This document shows positions 17,439 through 59,523 of a stretch of DNA of 64,000 nt, piece by piece. The stretch covers positions 118,235-182,234 of the forward strand of contig NZ_JBOHHW010000002.1 in assembly GCF_050725575.1 (NCBI RefSeq). Reading direction: 5' to 3'. Below the pieces are notes generated by a model. The model saw nothing but the letters and a program-made list of their open reading frames with translations, was not told the origin of the DNA and ran no database searches. How positions within the stretch are numbered: position 1 is the first letter of the stretch; every line of letters starts with the position of its first letter. This DNA comes from Sphingomonas sp. GTDB lineage: Bacteria > Pseudomonadota > Alphaproteobacteria > Sphingomonadales > Sphingomonadaceae. Position numbers and translations under genes: made by a program.

Positions 17439-17505
17439 TGGACATGTCCTGAATCGACTCAGGAGTGTTCTTTATATGTTCCGATACACCGAGTCGACTC
17501 CAAGA

Positions 17506-22408: not shown

Positions 22409-22416
22409 GAATTTCC

Positions 22417-22675
22417 GAGTCGCAACCGACCGTGCTGGCTGTTCCTGGCTGTTATTTCGCAAAAACATTTTTTGCTGGCTGTTATGTTGGATTTTGGGAG
22501 TGAATTTATAGTTATTTCTCAAATGCTTAGGTAAGAGCTGGCTGTCATTGGGTAACAGCCAGCGAACAGCCAGTTATCAGCCAGCGAACAGCGAACGACG
22601 CTGGCTGTTCTGATCGAAAACAGCCAGCGCAGAATCGTTTAACATTTCCCAGTCATGTCAAAGAGCGCGGCAGCC
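22417..22675 (+). repeat. AT-rich structured non-coding element, copy 1 (candidate ncRNA)
   Basis: At least 9 GCTGGCTGTT/AACAGCCAGC decamers and three perfect 9-10 bp hairpins. Collinear sequence blocks are shared with 51695-51924 on the opposite strand. Confidence 0.6.
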
Positions 22676-22733
22676 CCTGCCGGGTCCGCCTTGCATGGTT
22701 CTTCCACGATCGCAGACCGGATTGAATCGGCGG

Positions 22734-23261
22734 TCAGTCCTTTTTTTCGAGCAAGCCCTTCAGCCCGGCCAGCGCGCCGAGCGGCTTGAGCTCATCCTCA
22801 CTGATCACGCCCGCCGCGCGCAGCGCCGCGGCGGCATTCGGTCCGCGCGGGAAGGGATCGAGCGCCAGCATCATGGTTTCCGCCGCCGCTTCGCCCAGGT
22901 CGATCGCCGATCCGGCATAGAATATCGTGTCGAGCACATCCTCGGACAGCTCGATTTCCTCCTCATCGACAGCCCCGTCGACGATGAAGCGCAGCGCAAC
23001 GTCCTCCTCGACCGTGGCGGGAATCGGATCATCGGTAACCGAACAGGCCTGCACCACCGCAGCCGAGACATGGCCGCGCGCGACAATGCCCGCCGGCTCG
23101 CTGCGCACTTTGAACTCGCCCTCAAGCCGTTCGATCGCAATCAAGCCGAAGCGCGCGGCGAGCGCAGCGCGTTCGGTGTCGTTCGCGGCGATGGAGATGC
23201 TGCGTTCGCCAGCGCCAAAGGTATCGATCCGTTCGAGGCGAGAAAATTCGGGCGCGCTCAT
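22734..23261 (-). CDS. yceD: YceD/DUF177 family protein
   Basis: 175 aa, acidic. C-terminal part DPFPRGP...LKGLL is typical of DUF177. Confidence 0.8.
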   Translation of the reverse strand: MSAPEFSRLERIDTFGAGERSISIAANDTERAALAARFGLIAIERLEGEFKVRSEPAGIVARGHVSAAVVQACSVTDDPIPATVEEDVALRFIVDGAVDEEEIELSEDVLDTIFYAGSAIDLGEAAAETMMLALDPFPRGPNAAAALRAAGVISEDELKPLGALAGLKGLLEKKD

Positions 23262-27400: not shown

Positions 27401-30400
27401 TCACCGTTGGGCCACCGTCACCGGCGCATTGGGCAGCTGCGCGCGGATCGCGGGCGAATACATCGCCTCGACCCGCGTCGGCGGCAGGCTGAACCGGCCG
27501 GCGCCGTTCATGCGCATCAGATAGACGATGGTGAAGCTGCCGCGCGGCACCCAGGCGAAATAGCCGCGCCAGGAATCGCGCCGCCGCTCGACATAAGAGG
27601 CCTGCACGCCGACCTGCACATCCCATAGCTTGCCGTCGCCATCAGCCGCCGTGAAGCTCTCGCCGTCACCGGCCTTGGCCTGACCGGCGAGAATCTGCGA
27701 CTGGCCGCCAAGATTGCCGACGATCGTCGCGCCCGCCGGGATCGGGTCATTGACCACAACCCAGTTGCGTTCGGCCGAGGCCTCGACCGTGATCGTCACC
27801 TTGACCACATCGCCGCGGGTCAGCGTGCCGGGCGTGCGCGCCTGCACGATCTCGGTCTTCTTGGCCATTTTATAGCCGGCGAAGAGCGGTTGTTTGAGCG
27901 GCACCGCCGCCGAGACCGAGACCATTGCCCAGGGGCCGGCGGAACCGGCCTGTGCCATTTTCAGCGGGGTGGTCACCGCCGGCAGCGGGAACGACGCCTT
28001 GCGCAAATCGACCGCGAGCGGCCAGGAACGGGTAACCGTGCCTGAGCCGAGCGACAGGGTGGTCGGGCCAGTGATCGCCGATGCCGGATAAAGCTCACCG
28101 AATTTGCGCGCGGCGATCGTGCCCCAGGCATTGGCGGTGGTCGTATCCCAATGGCCGCGCAGCTGACGCAGGCTGACCCCGACCATCATCTTCGGCGCAT
28201 CGTCCTGCCAGCCGGGCCGGCCGAGCGTCGCGATGACCGCCTTGATCGACGCCTCATCGCCCGAGGACATCAGCCACCAGGGCGCGTTGCTCTGATCCGA
28301 TAGGTCGAGCCTGGTGCCTTCATAGACCAGGCGCGTGCGCAGCACCGATTCGGCGTTCGATTTGAGCGCGGCGGCATTGGCGATACCGGGAATGCGATCA
28401 AGCGCCACGAGATAGTCGGCGAGCATGCTGGTCGGCATTTCATTCGGCGGGATGCCGAGCTGGCCGAGCATGCCCGGCGACGCCGCGCCCTGCCGCGCCA
28501 GGGCGGTCAGCGCGGCAACGCGCTGCAGCCGGACATCGCCATATTGTTCATGCCGCAAGCGTCCGTCGAGCACGGCCTTCATCGCCTCGATCATCCGCGT
28601 GCGCGGCGCTTCGGGGATCGGCAGGCCGGCCTCGGCGGTCATCGACAGGACATAGGCGGTCAGCGCCTCCGACCCGGTCAGGCTGTCCGACGGCCAGTAG
28701 CGCAACAGCCCGTCCGATGCCTGATAGGTCGGTATGCTCGCCGCGAGCCGCGTCCAGGCGCCGCCATCACCCAGCGCGACCGCGCGCGACAGCGTCTGTT
28801 CGAAGCATTCGTAGGGATAGGCGGTCATGAAGGCGCGAACGCCCTGCAGTGGCGGCTGGAGCGTATCGTCGAGCCGGATATCGACCACGCCGCGACCGGG
28901 CAGCGCGCCCGCCGGCGGTGCGATCGCGATCGACGTATCGGTGCCGACGCGTGCGAGCGTCGCCGCCCACACTTCGACCGGGACCGCCGGAATGACATCC
29001 TGGCTGACCGTGATCTGGTCGACCGCCTTTTTGCCGTCCGCGACCGCCTTCACCTGCCAGCGCAAGGTCGCGATATTTTCCGGCGCCGTCAGGTTCCACG
29101 CGACCGGCACCGCGCCGCCCGCCGGGATGGTCACGGTGAGCGGACGGCCTTCAGCCACGCGCGGCGACACATCGACCGTCGCGGTGACCTTCATCGGCTT
29201 GTCCGAACCGTTGCGCAGCGTGAACGCCGCGGCATAGAAATCGCCCGATCGGACCAGAGTCGGCATGCCGGCAAAGATCGACAGATCCTGTGCGGTGCGC
29301 ACCGCCGCCATGCCGGTGCCGAACAGATCGGCGCCGTCGGTTGCGATCGCAACCAGCTTGAACGAGCTCAGCGCGTCGGACAGCGGCACCGGAATCCGCG
29401 CCCTGCCCTTCGCATCGAGGGTGACGCGGCCCTTCCACAGCAGCACCGGCTGGAAATTCTCGCGATTGAGGCCCGACAGGTCGCCACCGCCGCCGCCGCC
29501 GGCCTCGACCGCCTTGCGGCCATAATGGCGCTTGCCGACGACCTGCATCTGCGCGGTCGAGGTCAGCACCGAGAGCGAGCGTTCGCCCATCATCGCGGTC
29601 AGCAGGTCCCAGCTGTCATTGGGGGCAAGCTGCAGCAGCGCTTCGTCCACCGCGACAAACGCGACATCGGCGGTGGCGGCCGGCTTGCCGTCAGGCGCGT
29701 TGACCTGGACATCGACCTGCGCTGTGTCGCGCGCGGCATAGCGTTCCTTGTCCGCCTTGACCGCAACCTGCAACTTGTGCGTGTCCCAGCCGACCTTCAC
29801 CTTGGCGATGCCGAGGCGATAAGCAGGCTTGGCGAGATCGACCAGAGCGGTCGGCTCCTGTCCTTCAGGCGGTCCGCTCGCCAGCCCGAGGCTTTGCGCA
29901 ATACCGTTGACCCAGCTCCAGAAGCCGCTTTGCACACGGCCGCGCACCGCCATGACCGAGACGAAGACGTCGGGCGCATAGCTGCCCGGCATCTTCACCT
30001 CGACCACCGGATCCTTGCCCGACAGCGTGGTGACGAAGCTGGACAGAACGCCTTCGCGCTCGACCGTGACCAGGGCGGTCGCTTCGCGGAACGGCATGCG
30101 CACCTGGAAGCGTGCGGTTTCGCCGGCTTTATAATCGGTGCGTTCGGGGACCACGTCCATGCGATCGCCATTGTCGCCGCCGAACCACCAATCGTCATCG
30201 CCGGCGAGCCAGACCGAGCGCGTCGCACGTGCGACATTGCCGTTCGCATCGCTGGTCGTCGCCACGGCATAGACTTCACCCGACACGCCCGGATCGGCCG
30301 AGCATTGCGCCAGGCCCTGTGCATCGGTCGTCGCGCTGCACGTCGCCGAGAGCTTTTCGGTGCGCATCTGATTGTCATAGGCGTAGAAGCCGCCGATCAG

Positions 30401-33196
30401 CCGGCGCCGCGCGGTCAGCACCTTGCGGCTGTACAGCGCGACCGAAATTTTCTGGTTGGCGATCGGCTTGTTCGAGGTGTCGAGCGCGACGAAGCGCAGG
30501 CGCAGATCGTCCTGCTTCATCAGCCAGCCATCGGTCTTCACGCCGAGCTGCACCGCCGAGGCATAGATCGGGATGCGCCGCGACGCGGTCAGCACTTCGC
30601 CATTGGCGTCCTGATAATCCATCTCGACCAGCATATCGGCGCCGTTTTCGAGCGCCGGCACGTCAATCGTGGTGCGCGAGGTGCCGTCGCCGCCAAGCGT
30701 CGCGGGGAGCGTCTGAGTCGGCGGCAGTGGCGTCGATTGCTCCTCGCCATCGCCATTGAGCGGCTTCACGCCTTCCTTGATGTCCTCGCCGCCGAAGCTG
30801 AACGCTTCATAGCCCTCGGGATTGGCGCTGCGCCCGAACCAGCCGACGCGCATATCGACCGCAAGGTTCGACGCACCGCCACCCGAGAGATAGCCGACGA
30901 ACAGGTCGAGCGGCATGGTCTTGGGGCGGATTGCGGCTTCCTTCGGACCGGTCACGGTCGCGCGCATCGTCGGCAGCTTGTATTCGTCGACCTTGAACGA
31001 CTGGCCGGTATAGATCGTGCGGTCCCCGGTGATCACCTGCAGGTCGTAATCGCCCATCGGCGCGCCCTGCGGCGCACTCCATTCGGTCTCGCCCACGCCG
31101 CTGTCGTCGATCGTCAGCGGCAGGTCGAACTGGGTGTCCGAACCGCGATGCGACAGGCGCAGCGTGCCGGTAAAGGCGGGCGTCTTTTCAAAGCCGTTAC
31201 CGATCGGCTTGCGCACGATATGCTTCATATGGACCGTCTCGCCCTGGCGGACGAGCGCGCGATCGAACACGGTGTGGAGGATTTCCGACTTGGCTTCGTA
31301 GCCATAGGGCAAGTCGAAATCATAGGGCCGGATGCCGTCGCCCCAGGCGGTCAGGGTGAAGCTGAAATCGTCGCCGGCGCGGGCCGAGATCATCAGCGGT
31401 CCGGTATTGCCATTGTCGCAGCTGCCATAGGTTTGCGGCTCGGGCAGGCCGGGCGGCACGAACAGCCCGCCGGCCTTATCGGTCACGCCGCGCGCGAGCA
31501 GCCGGCCGCTGCAGCTGTCGGTGATGCGCACCTCGGCATCGGCCATTGGCTTGCCGCTATCGAGCTGAGTCACCCAGGCAAGGCTGCGTTCGCGGCCCCA
31601 TTTGAAATGCACCGCCATGTTGGTGACCAGAGCGGCGCTGGCAACATAGCGCGGCGCCTTGCGCCCGAGCAGCGCCTGGCCAAGCACGGGACTGGCCAGC
31701 TCCACGACATAGAATCCGGGCTTGGCCAGGTTGATCCCGACGACCTCGAAATCCTTGCCCTTGCCGGGCAGCGGCACTTTCAGCGCCGTGGCCGACCCGC
31801 CGGCGAGGATTGGCGCCGCACCGGTATTGTTGATGCGGAGGTCTTCCCCGCCGCGCTTGATCGTCTCCGATTTTTCGTCATCGGCGTCGTCGACGATGCG
31901 CAGCCAGTTGGCGATCTGTCCGTCCGATGCCTCGACGCGCAGGCTTTGCCCGGCAACGGCAAGATTCGAACCCTGCAGGCTATCCTCGATATTGCGCACG
32001 GTGACCGGCAGGATGCCGCCCTCCTTCGCCTCGATGATGCCGAAGGGGGCGGCGAATTTCACCAGCGGCGGCGCTTCGTCGAACCGGACGTCGAGCGGGA
32101 AGCGCTCGGCATTGGCGAGCGGGCGGCCGCTTTCGTCCTTGAGACCCGCCGGCAGTGTCAGTTTCGCGGCGGTCGATGCCGGTAGCGGTGCGGCGAAGTC
32201 GATATCGCTGATCGTCGCCTTTTTCTTGTCGTCGTCATCGAACACCGGCGCGATCGTCTTGCCGTCGGCAGTGGTGATGCTGATCTGCTGCGCGTCGGTC
32301 ATCGCGATCGGCGCGGTGAAGCGGACATGCGCCTTTTCGACCGGCGAACAGCCCGCCTGGGCATTGACGCGGCTGCATTCGAAGCGCGCCGTGAACGGCT
32401 TGCGCACGGTATAGTCGAAGCGCTGATCGGCGCCCGCCAGCTTGCCGCCGGCGCCGGCAATGTTCGCGCCCCAGACCAGCGCGACATCGCGGCCGGGGGG
32501 CAGCGGACGGCGGCATTTGAGCGCGGTCACGCCTTCATAGGCCTTGGCGCGGTCCGCCGCCGAAGCGGGCACCGAGGCCGGCAGTCCAGCCGTTTCCAGG
32601 AAGCTGCGCACGTTCCAATTGTCGGTGCCCATCTTGCCGAGCAATTCGCCCGGCAGGCTGGCGGGCAGCACATCGACCGGAATCTTCTCACCGATGCCCT
32701 CGACCGAGCAATAGGCATTGGCGCCGACCGACGCGGCGGTCGCGGGCAGATTGGCGGCGACCAGGAAGGTCTGGTCCTCCTCGATCTCGCCGTCATAACG
32801 CTCCGGCAGGACAGCGCGGGCGACCGGCCCGCCGCTATCGACCTTGAAGCTTTGCTGGCCGGTAACGGCATAGCCCGACACGCTTTTCAGTCCGCCCTTG
32901 AGCTTGAACTCGCAGGTGGTACCGCCGGGCAGGCCGTTCTTGAATTCATGCACGAAGGTCTGCGGGTCGACCCAGCGGCCTTCGCCCGCGACCGGGCAGG
33001 TCACGTCGAACGGGCCGGTCGCGCGCGGATCGCCCAAAGCGACCATTGGCTGGCTGAAACGTGCGGTGAAGCGTTCGATCGCGCCGCCGCCAATGCCGGG
33101 TGTGGCAAGGATGACCTGGGGACTATTATCCCCAAAAGCCGCGACCGGTGCGAGCGCGAGGCCCAGCAGAGTGAGACGAATTGCCAGCTTCATCAA
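27401..33196 (-). CDS. bacterial alpha-2-macroglobulin family protein
   Basis: 1931 aa. Signal peptide, repeated MG domains, and a thioester-type motif YPYECFEQT (C-x-E-Q). Confidence 0.92.
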   Translation of the reverse strand: MMKLAIRLTLLGLALAPVAAFGDNSPQVILATPGIGGGAIERFTARFSQPMVALGDPRATGPFDVTCPVAGEGRWVDPQTFVHEFKNGLPGGTTCEFKLKGGLKSVSGYAVTGQQSFKVDSGGPVARAVLPERYDGEIEEDQTFLVAANLPATAASVGANAYCSVEGIGEKIPVDVLPASLPGELLGKMGTDNWNVRSFLETAGLPASVPASAADRAKAYEGVTALKCRRPLPPGRDVALVWGANIAGAGGKLAGADQRFDYTVRKPFTARFECSRVNAQAGCSPVEKAHVRFTAPIAMTDAQQISITTADGKTIAPVFDDDDKKKATISDIDFAAPLPASTAAKLTLPAGLKDESGRPLANAERFPLDVRFDEAPPLVKFAAPFGIIEAKEGGILPVTVRNIEDSLQGSNLAVAGQSLRVEASDGQIANWLRIVDDADDEKSETIKRGGEDLRINNTGAAPILAGGSATALKVPLPGKGKDFEVVGINLAKPGFYVVELASPVLGQALLGRKAPRYVASAALVTNMAVHFKWGRERSLAWVTQLDSGKPMADAEVRITDSCSGRLLARGVTDKAGGLFVPPGLPEPQTYGSCDNGNTGPLMISARAGDDFSFTLTAWGDGIRPYDFDLPYGYEAKSEILHTVFDRALVRQGETVHMKHIVRKPIGNGFEKTPAFTGTLRLSHRGSDTQFDLPLTIDDSGVGETEWSAPQGAPMGDYDLQVITGDRTIYTGQSFKVDEYKLPTMRATVTGPKEAAIRPKTMPLDLFVGYLSGGGASNLAVDMRVGWFGRSANPEGYEAFSFGGEDIKEGVKPLNGDGEEQSTPLPPTQTLPATLGGDGTSRTTIDVPALENGADMLVEMDYQDANGEVLTASRRIPIYASAVQLGVKTDGWLMKQDDLRLRFVALDTSNKPIANQKISVALYSRKVLTARRRLIGGFYAYDNQMRTEKLSATCSATTDAQGLAQCSADPGVSGEVYAVATTSDANGNVARATRSVWLAGDDDWWFGGDNGDRMDVVPERTDYKAGETARFQVRMPFREATALVTVEREGVLSSFVTTLSGKDPVVEVKMPGSYAPDVFVSVMAVRGRVQSGFWSWVNGIAQSLGLASGPPEGQEPTALVDLAKPAYRLGIAKVKVGWDTHKLQVAVKADKERYAARDTAQVDVQVNAPDGKPAATADVAFVAVDEALLQLAPNDSWDLLTAMMGERSLSVLTSTAQMQVVGKRHYGRKAVEAGGGGGGDLSGLNRENFQPVLLWKGRVTLDAKGRARIPVPLSDALSSFKLVAIATDGADLFGTGMAAVRTAQDLSIFAGMPTLVRSGDFYAAAFTLRNGSDKPMKVTATVDVSPRVAEGRPLTVTIPAGGAVPVAWNLTAPENIATLRWQVKAVADGKKAVDQITVSQDVIPAVPVEVWAATLARVGTDTSIAIAPPAGALPGRGVVDIRLDDTLQPPLQGVRAFMTAYPYECFEQTLSRAVALGDGGAWTRLAASIPTYQASDGLLRYWPSDSLTGSEALTAYVLSMTAEAGLPIPEAPRTRMIEAMKAVLDGRLRHEQYGDVRLQRVAALTALARQGAASPGMLGQLGIPPNEMPTSMLADYLVALDRIPGIANAAALKSNAESVLRTRLVYEGTRLDLSDQSNAPWWLMSSGDEASIKAVIATLGRPGWQDDAPKMMVGVSLRQLRGHWDTTTANAWGTIAARKFGELYPASAITGPTTLSLGSGTVTRSWPLAVDLRKASFPLPAVTTPLKMAQAGSAGPWAMVSVSAAVPLKQPLFAGYKMAKKTEIVQARTPGTLTRGDVVKVTITVEASAERNWVVVNDPIPAGATIVGNLGGQSQILAGQAKAGDGESFTAADGDGKLWDVQVGVQASYVERRRDSWRGYFAWVPRGSFTIVYLMRMNGAGRFSLPPTRVEAMYSPAIRAQLPNAPVTVAQR

Positions 33197-48038: not shown

Positions 48039-48224
48039 GAAAATTCTGCTCGATTGTGCGTTGCACCATATACCCCATACTCGAAACCTAACATCCTCCC
48101 TCGTAGTTTGGCTAGCAGTAGTTGCATGAAACGCATCTATCACTGCTCTTTTCGCACTTGCACAATAAACTGTGCCCGTGCACAAAGACGGTGCCTTTCA
48201 GGCATCCTCTCCTAAAACTTTCAA

Positions 48225-48255
48225 GGCCGATCCTTCCGGGGTCGGCCCTTTTTTT
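48225..48255 (+). terminator. strong intrinsic terminator inside the lysR/cdc48 intergenic region
   Basis: GGCCGATCC-ttccg-GGGGTCGGCC (9 bp including one G-U pair) followed by C and T7. Confidence 0.8.
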
Positions 48256-48403
48256 GTCTTTTCAACAGCTTGGCGGATCACGCCGTGCGAAAAGCCATGC
48301 CGCGCCCCGGCGATCCGGCCTTAACACTCGCCCTTTAACTCTCGCATTGCCGGAACCCGTTCCCTATCTCACACGCTGAACAGCGCGTTTGCGAGGGAAT
48401 CTC

Positions 48404-50730: not shown

Positions 50731-51621
50731 ATGGCAGGCAGCAGGAAGATCAACCCCGGAATCGCATTCGGCATTGCCGCCTATGTGATCTGGGGCCTGT
50801 TGCCGAGCTTCATCAAGCTGCTCCATCCGCTGCCCGCGCCGGACATATTGGCGCATCGCATCCTGTGGTCGCTGCTGCTGCTGACGATTCTGGCAGTGGC
50901 CTTGCGCCATGGGCCGGTCCTGATCAGAATCATGCGGACGCCCCGCTTGCTGCTTGCGCTGACGGCATCGGCATCGCTGATCGGCATCAACTGGCTGGTC
51001 TACATCATCGCGGTCAATGGCGGCCATGTCGCCCAGGCCAGCCTGGGCTATTTCATCAACCCGCTGGTCAATGTCGTGCTCGGCGTGGTGATCCTGCGCG
51101 AGCGGCTCGGCCGGATCGAGGCGGTAGCGGTATTGCTTGCCACGGCCGCGGTGACCTTTCTGGCGATCTGGCAGGGCAGCATCCCCTATATCCCGCTGAT
51201 CCTGGCCTTCTCGTTCGCCTTTTACGGCCTGATCCGCAAAATGACGCCGGTCGATGCGCTTGACGGGCTGCTGGTCGAGACATCGATTCTGGCGCCGGCC
51301 GCCTTCGCCTGGCTGATGCTGGCGGGGACCACGCTGGGAGCGGCGGGGCCGGGCTGGCCGTTACTCGCCGCGAGCGGTGTCGTGACCGCGCTCCCCCTGC
51401 TGCTCTTCGCCGCAGCGGCAAAGCGCGTTCGATATTCCGATCTGGGGCTGCTCCAATATCTCGCACCGACGCTGCAGCTGGTGCTCGCGGTGTTCGTCTA
51501 TGGAGAAAAGCTGCATCCCGCCCAGATTGGCGCGTTCGCCCTGATCTGGGTCGCGCTGGCCATCTATGCTGTCGGTGCCTCGATCAGCGCGCGGCGGGCG
51601 GCGATGGTCGTGCCCGATTAG
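50731..51621 (+). CDS. rarD: RarD / EamA-family transporter
   Basis: About 10 TM helices. GIAFGIAAYVIWGLLP...LGYFINPLVNVVLG. A TTG at 50695 that overlaps the cdc48 stop is an alternative start. Confidence 0.85.
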   Translation: MAGSRKINPGIAFGIAAYVIWGLLPSFIKLLHPLPAPDILAHRILWSLLLLTILAVALRHGPVLIRIMRTPRLLLALTASASLIGINWLVYIIAVNGGHVAQASLGYFINPLVNVVLGVVILRERLGRIEAVAVLLATAAVTFLAIWQGSIPYIPLILAFSFAFYGLIRKMTPVDALDGLLVETSILAPAAFAWLMLAGTTLGAAGPGWPLLAASGVVTALPLLLFAAAAKRVRYSDLGLLQYLAPTLQLVLAVFVYGEKLHPAQIGAFALIWVALAIYAVGASISARRAAMVVPD

Positions 51622-51694
51622 GGCGATGGTCCGCATCGATTCAACCGTGCCGATGGCCAGGGCAGGGTGGCAGCGGACGGGGCGCCAGCCGGCA

Positions 51695-51924
51695 TTCTGT
51701 CCCGCTCTTTGACATGACCGGAAAATATCGCGTTCCCGCGCCCGCTGTTTCGACGGGAACAGGGGTCGCTCACCCCTGTTCCAGCGCTGTTCCACCGCTG
51801 TTATCGAAAACCGCGGAAGATGGCTTAAACTCCTGAAAATAAGACATGAATCAGCGTTTTGATTCCAACATAACAGGGGTGGTTTTTTATTGTCGCAAGA
51901 ACAGCGGAAAAGATCGCGCGACTC
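51695..51924 (-). repeat. AT-rich structured non-coding element, copy 2 (candidate ncRNA)
   Basis: The minus strand is collinear with 22417-22675: GAGTCGC, CTGTTATGTTGGA, a GAACAG....CTGTTC hairpin, TCGAAACAGC..GCGC and GTCATGTCAAAGAGCG. A perfect 10-bp hairpin lies at 51757-51781. Confidence 0.6.
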
Positions 51925-51944
51925 GCATCGCAGCGGCCGGCGAA

Positions 51945-59463: not shown

Positions 59464-59523
59464 CCTCCCGTCTTAGAACATTAAGCGAACGAAATAAAGC
59501 CTGACAGGCCTGGCCGGCCTAAC

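What the first reader, a model, noticed from the sequence alone, without database searches (positions are those of the whole stretch)
51695..51924. Second, diverged, opposite-strand copy of the same element with compensatory stem changes
The minus strand of the rarD/MFS convergent gap is collinear with 22417-22675. Shared blocks, in the same order:
- GAGTCGC: 22417-22423 versus the reverse complement of 51918-51924.
- CTGTTATGTTGGA: 22479-22491 versus the reverse complement of 51864-51876 (13/13).
- TAACAGC..GAACAGC.
- A GAACAGnnnn...nnnnCTGTTC hairpin.
- TCGAA(A)ACAGCnnGCGC.
- GTCATGTCAAAGAGCG: 22652-22667 versus the reverse complement of 51703-51718 (16/16).

Spacing between the blocks is similar: 62 versus 48 nt, and 173 versus 158 nt.

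The 10-bp stem is GAACAGCCAG/CTGGCTGTTC in copy 1 and GAACAGGGGT/ACCCCTGTTC in copy 2 (51757-51766 with 51772-51781). Four positions differ on both arms while pairing is preserved. Compensatory change of this kind argues for selection on base pairing (RNA or cruciform), not on a fixed protein-binding word.

Both copies lie immediately 3' of a co-oriented gene (the sixA-like gene; the MFS transporter). Both have a TT(C)GCGA/TTCGCA -17/18 nt- TGTTAT promoter-like pair ahead of the hairpin module. I do not recognise the element as any known alphaproteobacterial sRNA, riboswitch or REP family.
Basis: seen in the sequence. Interest (0 to 1): 0.7.

Follow-up and report, generated by a model that had tools for sequence, protein, structure and literature searches.

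The report
Dispersed composite intergenic repeat of Sphingomonas
The two look-alike stretches are copies of a previously undescribed ~320-bp non-coding element that has spread to many gene-end junctions in Sphingomonas genomes; it looks like a docking platform for DNA-binding proteins rather than a conventional small-RNA gene.

Summary
Window 51622-51944 (- strand) and 22409-22733 (+ strand) are two diverged copies (about 48-67% identical) of one element.

It is a multi-copy family: at least 9 copies in S. oligophenolica, 4 in each of two other Sphingomonas genomes, and more than 120 soil-metagenome loci. There is no hit in Rfam, plasmids, phages or the literature.

Both window copies are lineage-specific insertions. 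Related genomes have the two convergent genes abutting, with overlapping stop codons.

The element has two modules:
- **L module, about 210 bp.** It carries 10-bp repeats (RKAACAGCGG) in two inverted clusters, spaced 11 bp apart, around an IHF-like site. It folds back as a long imperfect palindrome.
- **R module, about 105 bp.** It has an A/T tract, an invariant CRGTCATGTCAAAGAGC block, a variable GC hairpin, a TGCnACAAT linker and a terminal TTGAATC. The L repeats sit in fixed register with the R block, at -33 minus multiples of 11.

In orthologous copies from four species the motif columns stay 93-100% identical while the rest decays to 45-82%.

My best reading (confidence about 0.45) is a MITE-like, trans-mobilised element whose conserved parts are protein-binding sites, kept under constraint after insertion. 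No evidence singles out RNA.

The parts
51622..51944 (-). Copy 2, whole inserted segment between the EamA/RarD stop codon (51619-51621) and the MFS stop codon (51945-47)
   Evidence: The family HMM match is 51629-51936. The orthologous junctions in L169, L170, L171 and L173 lack it. The same-species strain L172 has it at 95% identity.
51917..51932 (-).
   Evidence: The terminator scan found it. Subfamily B copies have a hairpin followed by TTTTTTC at the same place.
51864..51907 (-). Left repeat cluster: unit CCGCTGTTC (51907-51899), an A/T tract, and unit plus block ACCCCTGTTATGTTGGA (51880-51864)
   Evidence: Sequence read directly. Where the search did not force it, CTGTTATGTTGG was exact in about half of the copies and 1-3 mismatches away in most others.
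51826..51839 (-). IHF-like site TTTTCAGGAGTTTA (family consensus WATCAR-N4-TTR) at a fixed offset from block 1
   Evidence: The strict motif is present in 22/73 copies at offset 23-25, against a 0.1% shuffled expectation. The core CA-N5-TT is 86-95% conserved.
51745..51816 (-). Central palindrome CCGCGGTTTTCGATAACAGCGG plus the right repeat cluster: TAACAG, GAACAG, the GAACAGGGGT/ACCCCTGTTC hairpin at 51781-51757, and the proximal AACAG at 51749
   Evidence: Unit consensus is RKAACAGCGG. Spacing is 11 bp. The proximal unit lies at -33 from the CATG of the R block, on the family lattice.
51704..51729 (-). A/T tract followed by the invariant block CGGTCATGTCAAAGAGC (start of the R module)
   Evidence: Positions -10 to -6 are 72-91% A/T, and C-4, G-2 and T-1 are 93-97% conserved. 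The block is exact in all copies found through the other block.
51672..51706 (-). Variable GC-rich hairpin H1 (AGCGGGAC ... GTCCGCT)
   Evidence: Same-copy arm complementarity gives z = -6.9 against permuted copies. The interval MFE gives z = -1.3, p = 5e-16. There is no strand asymmetry.
51638..51664 (-). Linker (family TGCnACAAT, here TGCCCTGGCC), a 10-nt spacer, and the terminal TTGAATC (51644-51638, which contains GANTC)
   Evidence: TTGAATC is present in 23/23 copies where the search did not force it. The linker lies at a fixed -20 from it. A hairpin around TTGAATC is not supported (z = -0.9).
22409..22733 (+). Copy 1, whole inserted segment between the SixA-like stop codon (22406-08) and the YceD stop codon (22734-36)
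   Evidence: The HMM match is 22419-22734. The empty orthologous junction in L039 has overlapping stop codons.
22435..22491 (+). Copy 1 left cluster: CTGGCTGTTC, CTGGCTGTTAT, a T-run, and CTGGCTGTTATGTTGGA
   Evidence: Sequence read directly. All units carry the CCAG/CTGG word.
22516..22529 (+). Copy 1 IHF-like site TTCTCAAATGCTTA
22537..22628 (+). Copy 1 palindrome GCTGGCTGTCATTGGGTAACAGCCAGC, the right units, and the hairpin CAGCCAGCG/CGCTGGCTG
   Evidence: MFE fold.
22641..22728 (+). Copy 1 R module: A/T tract, CAGTCATGTCAAAGAGC (22650-22666), hairpin GGCAG/CTGCC, TTCCACGATC (22702-22711), TTGAATC (22722-22728)

Best explanation
The two sites are members of a previously undescribed family of non-coding, non-autonomous mobile elements of about 285-345 bp. 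The family is confined, as far as sampled, to a clade of Sphingomonas.

**Shown.**
- The element inserts into gene-end junctions and exists in many diverged copies.
- It consists of two modules. One is an IHF-site-centred foldback of helically phased 10-bp repeats (RKAACAGCGG), with about 3-4 units in one orientation and about 2-6 in the other. The other is a module with an invariant 17-mer, a variable GC hairpin, and the conserved linker and terminal TTGAATC. The repeats sit in fixed register with the invariant block.

**Inferred mechanism.**
- The repeats are binding sites for one sequence-specific DNA-binding protein acting in trans, such as a transposase or recombinase, or a winged-helix regulator of the PhoB/TorR type.
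- IHF bends the 63-66 bp spacer, so the left sites stack onto the right array and form one nucleoprotein complex next to the invariant block.
- That complex is what mobilised the element. The ends are GATTC ... GAATC, both CcrM GANTC sites, and one copy has a 9-bp target duplication.
- The same complex still forms at resident copies. This would explain why the motif columns remain under purifying selection long after insertion while everything between them drifts.
For: **Multi-copy and restricted.** 22 loci in 7 Sphingomonas genomes or MAGs, 9 of them in S. oligophenolica.

**Insertion polymorphism.**
- Copy 1 is absent from L039. Unrelated repeats occupy the same junction in L038 and L040.
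- Copy 2 is absent from L169, L170, L171 and L173 but present in the same-species strain L172.

**Non-coding.**
- There is no conserved reading frame and no codon periodicity.
- No protein family is enriched among 148 neighbouring proteins.

**DNA-level protein-binding architecture.**
- Unit spacing is 11 bp (87 times), 21-22 bp (57 times), 12 bp or 10 bp.
- Unit positions are quantised at -33, -44, -54, -65, -76, -87 and -98 from the R block.
- The IHF-like motif sits at a fixed offset, about 300 times more often than chance.
- The foldback gives z = -4.3 on both strands.

**Subfamily-specific repeat words.** CGG, CCAG and GGG types are each homogeneous across both arms of a copy, as expected if the sites co-evolve with a cognate protein.

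**Landing sites.** Gene 3' ends abut 81% of R ends and 76% of L ends. Only one copy lies in a divergent gap, and there is no orientation bias in tandem gaps.

**Target duplication.** A perfect 9-bp direct repeat abuts CGATTC ... TTGAATC in L003.

**Constraint after insertion.** In an orthologous quartet the motif columns are 0.93-1.0 identical, other element columns 0.45-0.82, and flanking CDS 0.80-0.94.
Against: - There is no family-wide terminal inverted repeat or target-site duplication.
- The L003 repeat is a single case.
- No autonomous partner or transposase was found next to any of about 145 loci, nor on plasmids, phages or viral contigs.
- The R module lies outside the repeat clusters. 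It also occurs behind a non-L upstream region in L077, and behind highly diverged L-like regions in L132, L141, L125 and L154. A simple two-transposon-ends model does not predict this.
- Purifying selection on motifs in old orthologous copies is not expected for a purely selfish, inert MITE.
- The searches required exact blocks, so decayed copies are invisible.
Confidence: 0.45

Rival explanations
1. A mobile regulatory cassette. The R module is a small transcription unit, either an sRNA with a conserved 5' seed AUGUCAAAGAGC or an outward transcript that runs antisense into the neighbouring gene's 3' end. Its promoter uses the A/T tract as a -10 element and the proximal repeat (ATAACA) as a -35 element. 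The L module is its upstream control region: an array of response-regulator sites plus IHF, as at OmpR-, PhoB-, TorR- or GlrR-controlled promoters.
For: - The repeats are in strict register with the block, and the proximal unit at -33 lies where a -35 element would be.
- An A/T tract at -10 to -6 is followed by an invariant sequence starting with a C|A pyrimidine-purine step.
- The R module occurs behind a non-L upstream region in L077, and behind highly diverged L-like regions in L132, L141, L125 and L154.
- A hairpin H1 with within-copy complementarity follows the block.
- The motifs are conserved in orthologous copies after insertion.
- From my own knowledge, the unit CTGTT(A/C)(T/C) resembles the PhoB box (CTGTCAT) and the TorR box (CTGTTCATAT).
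Against: - The consensus scan finds no sigma-70 promoter.
- The A/T tract is not base-specific in the way a -10 element is.
- No intrinsic terminator or other conserved 3' end exists; the hairpin around TTGAATC is not supported.
- There is no G-U strand asymmetry.
- There is no Rfam hit.
- In one subfamily (aggtttcgaccgtCATG) the -10-like tract is poor.
- No expression data are available.
Confidence: 0.25
2. A BIME/RIP- or ERIC-like structural element. It would be maintained between convergent genes because its palindromes and IHF site serve the host, by relieving supercoiling, acting as gyrase or IHF landing pads, or terminating and stabilising the two converging mRNAs. The left hairpin plus T-run would serve the upstream gene. 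H1 followed by TTTGAC on the other strand would serve the downstream gene.
For: - Convergent junctions are strongly preferred, and the element fills the whole gap from stop codon to stop codon.
- An IHF-like site lies between inverted palindromic units, as in E. coli RIP/BIME-1.
- A terminator-like hairpin plus T-run sits at the left end.
- The hairpins are symmetric between strands.
- The motifs are conserved after insertion.
Against: - Relatives do without any spacer at both junctions, with overlapping stop codons, so the element is not needed there.
- The invariant 17-mer, the linker and TTGAATC have no role in such a model.
- H1 is followed by only three T residues on the reverse strand.
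- There are only about 10-20 copies per genome, far fewer than REP/BIME.
Confidence: 0.15
3. One reading: a structured RNA (sRNA or cis-regulatory RNA) of about 150-200 nt, transcribed from the TTGCGA-17-TGTTAT pair, with its hairpins kept by compensatory substitution.
For: - The L module folds far better than shuffles.
- The arm words covary within copies.
- A hairpin at the same relative position has different sequences in copy 1, copy 2 and subfamily B.
Against: - Folding z-scores are equal or better on the opposite strand.
- The 11-bp phasing and the IHF-type motif point to duplex DNA.
- The "compensatory" word is shared by all repeats of a subfamily.
- RNAalifold finds no consensus structure for the R module.
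- The -35 half of the proposed promoter is not conserved, and there is no terminator.
Confidence: 0.08

Closest known systems
Correia elements (CREE/NEMIS) of Neisseria and similar MITEs with a central IHF site
   Same: - It is a short non-coding dispersed repeat with foldback structure and an IHF-type site in the middle.
- Insertion is polymorphic between relatives.
- It sits next to genes, where it can supply hairpins or promoters.
   Different: - Correia elements have 26-bp terminal inverted repeats, a TA target duplication and hundreds of fairly similar copies.
- Here there is no consistent TIR or TSD, and only about 10-20 copies per genome at about 64% identity.
- Here there are many internal phased repeats and an asymmetric extra module (R).
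E. coli BIME-1 / RIP (REP-IHF-REP) and ERIC elements
   Same: - It is a mosaic of inverted palindromic units around an IHF site.
- It is located at gene 3' ends and convergent junctions.
- Orthologous copies are conserved across species.
   Different: - REP units are 35-40-nt palindromes with a GTAG-type head, mobilised by RAYT transposases, and present in hundreds of copies.
- The units here are 10-bp repeats on an 11-bp lattice.
- Copies occur in both orientations close together (window; L071).
- No RAYT-like neighbour was seen.
Ends of Tn7 / Mu / Tn552-type transposons, and the IS10 outside end (from my own knowledge)
   Same: - Several transposase-binding repeats are spread out in one end and tightly packed in the other.
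- IHF or HU bending is needed to assemble the complex.
- IS10 combines an IHF site, a methylation site at the end and a 9-bp target duplication. Compare the GANTC ends here and the 9-bp repeat in L003.
   Different: - No transposase gene, no 5'-TG...CA-3' termini and no 18-23-bp TIR were found.
- The two repeat clusters abut each other, with only about 300 bp in all.
- The R module lies outside the clusters.
Response-regulator plus IHF controlled sRNA promoters (GlmY/GlmZ, OmrA/B, Qrr), from my own knowledge
   Same: - An array of phased activator sites, an IHF site and a short conserved transcript start.
- Several paralogous copies per genome.
   Different: - No sigma-54 (GG-N10-GC) or sigma-70 consensus promoter was found, and no terminator.
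- Transcription has not been shown.
- Known families are not mobile insertions between stop codons.

Membership tests
MITE (miniature inverted-repeat transposable element) | Short, non-coding, multi-copy and dispersed | tested here: met
   - About 285-345 bp.
- At least 9 copies in one genome and more than 120 metagenome loci.
- No conserved ORF.
MITE (miniature inverted-repeat transposable element) | Presence/absence polymorphism at orthologous sites | tested here: met
   Empty junctions are found in L039 (for copy 1) and in L169, L170, L171 and L173 (for copy 2).
MITE (miniature inverted-repeat transposable element) | Terminal inverted repeats at the outer ends | tested here: not met
   - The longest inverted k-mer between the ends averages 7.18, against 6.99 +/- 0.13 in permuted pairs.
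- Only a 5-bp GATTC/GAATC recurs.
- The inverted repeats that do exist are internal, within the L module.
MITE (miniature inverted-repeat transposable element) | Target-site duplication of fixed length | tested here: inconclusive
   - There is no family-wide signal.
- One perfect 9-bp duplication occurs in L003.
- CGATGC(G) abuts both ends of window copy 2.
MITE (miniature inverted-repeat transposable element) | A related autonomous element encoding the transposase | tested here: not met
   - No family is enriched among 148 neighbouring proteins.
- There is no hit in plasmids, phages or viral contigs.
- Whole genomes could not be searched.
REP / BIME (RAYT-mobilised) | 35-40-nt imperfect palindromes with a conserved GT(A/G)G head, hundreds of copies, and an associated RAYT gene | tested here: not met
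   - The units are 10-bp RKAACAGCGG.
- There are tens of copies, not hundreds.
- No RAYT or Y1-transposase neighbour was seen.
Any Rfam RNA family (including alphaproteobacterial ar/Smr sRNAs) | A covariance-model score at or above the gathering threshold | tested here: not met
   - The only gathering-level hit in the window is mmgR at 48186-48262.
- Lenient scans of both copies and of 4 loci give only sub-threshold chance hits, for example ar7 at 14 bits against a threshold of 60.
Structured RNA in general | Covariation supporting a consensus structure on one strand | tested here: inconclusive
   - H1 shows within-copy complementarity (z = -6.9). Covariation on the MAFFT alignment exceeded all 500 shuffles, but only 61% of cells are paired.
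- RNAalifold predicts no consensus structure.
- No strand bias was found.
Alphaproteobacterial LexA (SOS) operator cluster | GAAC-N7-GAAC direct repeat overlapping a promoter | tested here: not met
   - An exact box is present in only 13/75 copies, and in none of subfamily B.
- The conserved core is AACAG, not GAAC.
- Genuine-looking boxes in the window lie elsewhere.
Type I toxin-antitoxin / small-protein repeat (QUAD, LDR type) | A conserved small ORF | tested here: not met
   - The MSKS... frame is broken by non-triplet indels and premature stop codons, and entropy is equal at the three codon positions.
- Conservation across the MLDF... ORF follows the IHF motif, not codons.
Integron attC site | R'' (RYYYAAC) and R' (GTTRRRY) bracketing a 57-141-bp imperfect hairpin with L''/L' boxes, arranged in cassette arrays | tested here: inconclusive
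   - GTCCAAC ... GTTGGAT and GTCCAAC ... GTTGAAT fit the degenerate core consensus in subfamily B.
- No L''/L' pairing was seen, copies are solitary between core genes, and no integrase is nearby.
- No attC model was available to run.
IS200/IS605-derived PATE (ssDNA, HUH transposase) | Subterminal hairpins on one strand, no TIR or TSD, and strong orientation bias relative to replication | tested here: not met
   - Copies in opposite orientation lie 29 kb apart in the window and 8.6 kb apart in L071.
- GC skew shows no replichore switch in the window.

The most novel reading that the evidence does not exclude
The element is a self-contained, mobile regulatory cassette. A response-regulator-type protein and IHF assemble on the phased repeats and switch on a promoter whose transcript begins at the invariant block. 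By transposing into gene-end junctions, the cassette has placed 10-20 small RNAs, or antisense transcripts into neighbouring genes, under one regulator. That would make it a regulon built by a mobile element. The CcrM (GANTC) sites at both tips would tie its activity to the cell cycle.
Probability: 0.2. Interest if true: 0.75.

Novelty: new variant of a known kind. Interest (0 to 1): 0.45.

Why it matters
Dispersed intergenic repeats are well known in enterobacteria, Neisseria and rhizobia. I found none described for sphingomonads in Rfam or in the searched literature.

This family has a very explicit architecture: an 11-bp lattice of repeats locked in register to an invariant block, an IHF-type site, and GANTC tips. 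It combines two properties that are rarely documented together:
- clear insertion polymorphism, landing exactly between overlapping convergent stop codons;
- strong purifying selection on its motif columns in old orthologous copies.

This makes it a tractable case for asking how a mobile repeat becomes a maintained protein-binding or regulatory site.

On the practical side, annotators of Sphingomonas genomes should mask or label these roughly 320-bp gaps.

Tried and rejected
- **Known RNA family.** Four Rfam scans, including lenient ones, gave nothing. ARAGORN found no tRNA-like gene.
- **Plasmid, phage or viral origin.** There is no blastn hit. The viral pattern hits are chance matches, one of them inside a helicase ORF.
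- **The 29.5 kb between the inverted copies as a composite mobile element.** The interval holds core genes (YceD, BamE, PBP, mmgR, Cdc48-like ATPase), and each copy has its own empty site.
- **LexA/SOS operator array.** Rejected.
- **Sigma-54 promoter.** The GG-N10-GC matches I saw by eye lie in the right arm of H1 and are not in register between copies. Judged by reading the sequences only.
- **Small ORFs.** Both MSKS... starting at the ATG of the block and MLDF... starting at the ATG of CTGTTATGTTGG are rejected.
- **Hairpin with TTGAATC in its loop.** It looked convincing by eye in many copies but is not better than permuted flanks (z = -0.9).
- **General TIR or TSD.** None was found.
- **Xer/dif-like core.** TTATGTTGGAT matches the XerD arm at 9/11, but there is no XerC arm. 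Judged by reading only.
- **CtrA box.** The T at the key position is present in only 2-5% of units.
- **Functional enrichment or transposase among neighbours.** None was found.
- **Third copy at window 46545.** It is a 2-mismatch chance hit in a promoter region.
Full report

Yes. Reading both regions confirms every exact block at the stated coordinates:
- GAGTCGC is at 22417-22423 and at the reverse complement of 51918-51924.
- CTGTTATGTTGGA is at 22479-22491 and 51864-51876(-).
- GTCATGTCAAAGAGCG is at 22652-22667 and 51703-51718(-).

The two long blocks occur nowhere else in the 64-kb window. The phased word AACAGC-N5-AACAG occurs only inside the two copies, where 0 are expected by chance. 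Pairwise blastn of the two gaps gives E = 2e-9. A profile built only from copies in other genomes recovers exactly these two sites, with E = 2.8e-44 and 2.3e-37.

The profile spans 22419-22734(+) and 51629-51936(-). Both copies fill convergent gene gaps: His_Phos_1 (SixA-like) / YceD, and MFS / EamA.

**2. It is a family.**

A scan of one genome per species for the two blocks at the right distance returned 22 loci, all Sphingomonas or unnamed MAGs:
- 9 in S. oligophenolica JCM 12082
- 4 in strain ZT3P38
- 4 in MAG SO_2017_GW1_210

Copies within one genome are only 57-86% identical, mean 64%. The best relatives of the window copies in the sample are about 76-79% identical over 110-160 nt.

There is no match in:
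- Rfam at gathering or lenient thresholds
- PLSDB plasmids or GenBank phages
- IMG/VR beyond chance hits
- the literature, searched by sequence strings or by topic

The window itself comes from a Sphingomonas-like MAG, GCA_975253555.1.

**3. Anatomy.**

Reading 5' to 3' on the element's strand, the left (L) module of about 210 bp contains:
- A tip that is often GATT(T)C.
- In one subfamily, TCCAACA followed by a small hairpin and TTTTTTC.
- Two adjacent repeat units (CCGCTGTTNN).
- An A/T tract.
- A third unit fused to a conserved block, CCGCTGTTATGTTGGATTT. Where the search did not force it, this block is exact in about half of the copies and 1-3 mismatches away in most others.
- A 63-66-bp spacer with an IHF-like motif at a fixed offset. 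The strict WATCAR-N4-TTR is present in 22/73 copies, against 0.1% in shuffles. The CA-N5-TT core is 86-95% conserved.
- A palindrome, CCGCTGTTAT-n-ATAACAGCGG.
- Two to six further units in the inverted orientation.

The unit consensus is RKAACAGCGG. Successive units are 11 bp apart (87 cases), or 21-22, 12 or 10 bp apart.

Relative to the C of CATG in the next block, the units sit on a lattice at -33, -44, -54, -65, -76, -87 and -98. Window copy 2 has its proximal unit exactly at -33. Copy 1 has it at -35.

The right (R) module of about 105 bp contains:
- A GC-rich stretch.
- A 5-nt A/T tract (72-91% A/T).
- The invariant CRGTCATGTCAAAGAGC block.
- A GC-rich hairpin (H1) of variable sequence.
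- A linker, TGCnACAAT, at a fixed -20 from the end.
- The terminal TTGAATC, which was present in 23/23 copies where the search did not force it.

The distance from AAAGAGC to TTGAATC is 46-59 nt with a hard upper edge.

One copy (L077) keeps the R module behind an upstream region with no L-type units. In L132, L141, L125 and L154 the upstream region is so diverged that the profile no longer matches it, although it still shows L-like features: TCCAACA/TGTTGGA and inverted short repeats, with GAGCAGG units in L132. In L123 an IS3-family element interrupts the L module, and L054 and L062 carry shortened L modules. No L module without R was seen in about 0.9 Mb of fetched DNA.

**4. Which structures are supported?**

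- *H1 is real.* Its arms are more complementary within a copy than between copies (z = -6.9). The interval folds better than dinucleotide shuffles (mean z = -1.3, p = 5e-16). A fixed-column count on a MAFFT alignment shows modest covariation: no shuffle out of 500 reached it, but only 61% of cells are paired.
- *The hairpin I thought I saw around TTGAATC is not supported* (z = -0.9).
- *RNAalifold gives no consensus structure* for R.
- *The L module is a long imperfect palindrome.* Mean z is -4.3, but it is -4.29 forward and -4.86 reverse once composition is controlled.

No test separates RNA from DNA or one strand from the other.

**5. The "compensatory" stem.**

- Copy 1 carries CCAG in all eight units on both arms, as do L080, L051, L088 and L137.
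- Most copies carry CGG.
- Some carry GGG(T), and copy 2 is mixed.

So the change is a subfamily signature, not an independent double substitution in one stem. The two stems are also not built alike, with loops of 27 and 5 nt.

Still, within-copy complementarity of the words on the two arms exceeds permutation: 44/65 against a mean of 29 and a maximum of 37. A hairpin at the same relative place also has three different sequences in copy 1, copy 2 and subfamily B.

Homogeneous, arm-symmetric words fit two explanations. Either the sites co-evolve with a cognate binding protein, or the palindrome arms homogenise each other. Neither requires an RNA.

**6. Mobility.**

Copy 1:
- The SixA-like/YceD junction in a relative with 82% protein identity (L039) has no spacer at all; the stop codons overlap (TTAA).
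- Two other relatives (L038, L040) carry unrelated palindromic repeats there.

Copy 2:
- The MFS/EamA junction is empty in four relatives, with overlapping CTAA or TTAG, a 38-nt overlap, or a 9-bp spacer.
- A same-species strain (99% MFS identity, L172) has the element at 95% identity. All differences fall in variable parts, and the flanks are identical.

Both window copies are therefore lineage-specific insertions exactly at convergent stop-codon junctions.

Across the family:
- Gene 3' ends abut 81% of R ends and 76% of L ends.
- Fully classified gaps are 27 convergent, 6 tandem co-oriented, 9 tandem anti-oriented and 1 divergent (using a crude GC3-based gene caller).
- There is no family-wide TIR or TSD.
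- L003 is flanked by a perfect 9-bp direct repeat (AGGCAGGCG) abutting CGATTC ... TTGAATC.
- Copy 2 has CGATGC(G) abutting GAGTCGC ... and ... TTGAAT.
- Both tips carry GANTC.
- No protein family, and no transposase, is enriched among 148 neighbouring proteins.

**7. Constraint after insertion.**

One locus is shared by four species (L008, L015, L019, L068), and there the element runs from stop codon to stop codon. Pairwise identity is as follows:

| Region | Pairwise identity |
|---|---|
| Flanking CDS | 0.80-0.94 |
| Family motif columns | 0.93-1.0 |
| Remaining element columns | 0.45-0.82 |

The searches required intact blocks, so there is ascertainment bias. Even so, keeping about 97 motif columns nearly invariant while neighbouring columns approach saturation is not neutral decay.

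**8. What was excluded.**

- Coding. The MSKS... frame from the ATG of the block is broken by non-triplet indels and premature stop codons, and shows no codon periodicity. The 23-codon MLDF... frame is a by-product of fixed spacing, because conservation follows the IHF motif rather than codons.
- A LexA operator array. An exact GAAC-N7-GAAC is present in only 13/75 copies. Good SOS-like boxes lie elsewhere in the window, upstream of an MmcB-like gene and a LigT-like gene.
- Sigma-70 consensus promoters. None was found in either copy.
- tRNA-like genes. None was found.
- An ssDNA/HUH-type element. Opposite orientations occur at short range.

**9. Most likely mechanism.**

*Shown:* this is a dispersed, insertion-polymorphic, non-coding composite element. 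Its conserved parts are short sequence blocks arranged with helical-repeat precision around an IHF-type site.

*Inferred:*
- One sequence-specific protein binds the repeats on one face of the helix.
- IHF bends the spacer so that the left sites fold onto the right array, forming a single complex next to the invariant block.
- This complex mobilised the element in trans. It resembles the multi-site ends of Tn7 or Mu, and the IS10 end with its IHF site, methylation site and 9-bp duplication.
- The complex continues to form at resident copies, which keeps the motifs under selection.

I give this reading a confidence of about 0.45.

The main rival, at about 0.25, is that the same architecture is a regulator-plus-IHF controlled promoter firing at the C|A of CATGTCAAAGAGC. 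The element would then be a mobile sRNA or antisense cassette. The lattice, the A/T tract and the modular upstream regions fit this. The lack of a base-specific -10 element, of a terminator, and of any expression data count against it.

A BIME/ERIC-like structural or terminator role gets about 0.15. These four do not sum to 1; the remainder is for explanations not considered here.

**10. Verdict.**

The finding is genuine and points to an undescribed Sphingomonas repeat family. By kind it belongs with MITE/BIME/Correia-type intergenic elements. Its build is unusual: there are no outer TIRs, the repeats sit on an 11-bp lattice in register with an invariant block, the tips carry GANTC, and it inserts between overlapping stop codons.

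Novelty: new variant of a known kind. Interest: 0.45.

Noticed in passing
window 48186-48262 (+): mmgR/suhB small RNA (Rfam RF00519, 58 bits, full length) lies just upstream of the Cdc48-like AAA ATPase gene. It is the only Rfam gathering-level hit in the window.
   Followed up: no
window 59476-59490 (+) and 17467-17481 (-): Two perfect alphaproteobacterial SOS-box-like direct repeats. GAACATTAAGCGAAC lies 13 bp upstream of an MmcB-like DNA-repair gene. GAACATATAAAGAAC lies about 30 bp upstream of a LigT-like 2'-5' RNA ligase gene. Both are probably LexA operators.
   Followed up: partly
L038:700-885 and L040:2041-2228 (orthologues of the window 22409-22733 junction): In two related genomes the same SixA-like/YceD convergent junction is occupied by other, unrelated long palindromic repeats (GGGAGGGG-type arms). 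This junction is a general landing pad for repeats.
   Followed up: no
L173:2030-2058 (empty MFS/EamA junction): A tandem duplication, CCTAATCGGGGAC / CCTAGTCGGGCAC, separates the two stop codons that overlap in other relatives. It looks like a footprint of a past insertion and excision, or an independent duplication.
   Followed up: no
L003:5770-6071 (-): One family member is flanked by a perfect 9-bp direct repeat, AGGCAGGCG, abutting CGATTC ... TTGAATC. It is the only clear target-site-duplication-like case among about 60 copies tested.
   Followed up: partly
L123:290-620 (-): An IS3-family element (rve transposase C-terminus and IS end) has inserted into the L module of one copy, leaving the R module intact.
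   Followed up: no
L172:2536-2560 versus window 51930-51944: Between two strains of the same species, the left junction of copy 2 differs by a 13-bp indel and a rearranged 13-nt stretch, while the flanking genes are identical. The element's edges are unstable.
   Followed up: no
window 27401-33196 (-): A very large ORF (1931 aa) lies between the two copies. It was not examined.
   Followed up: no
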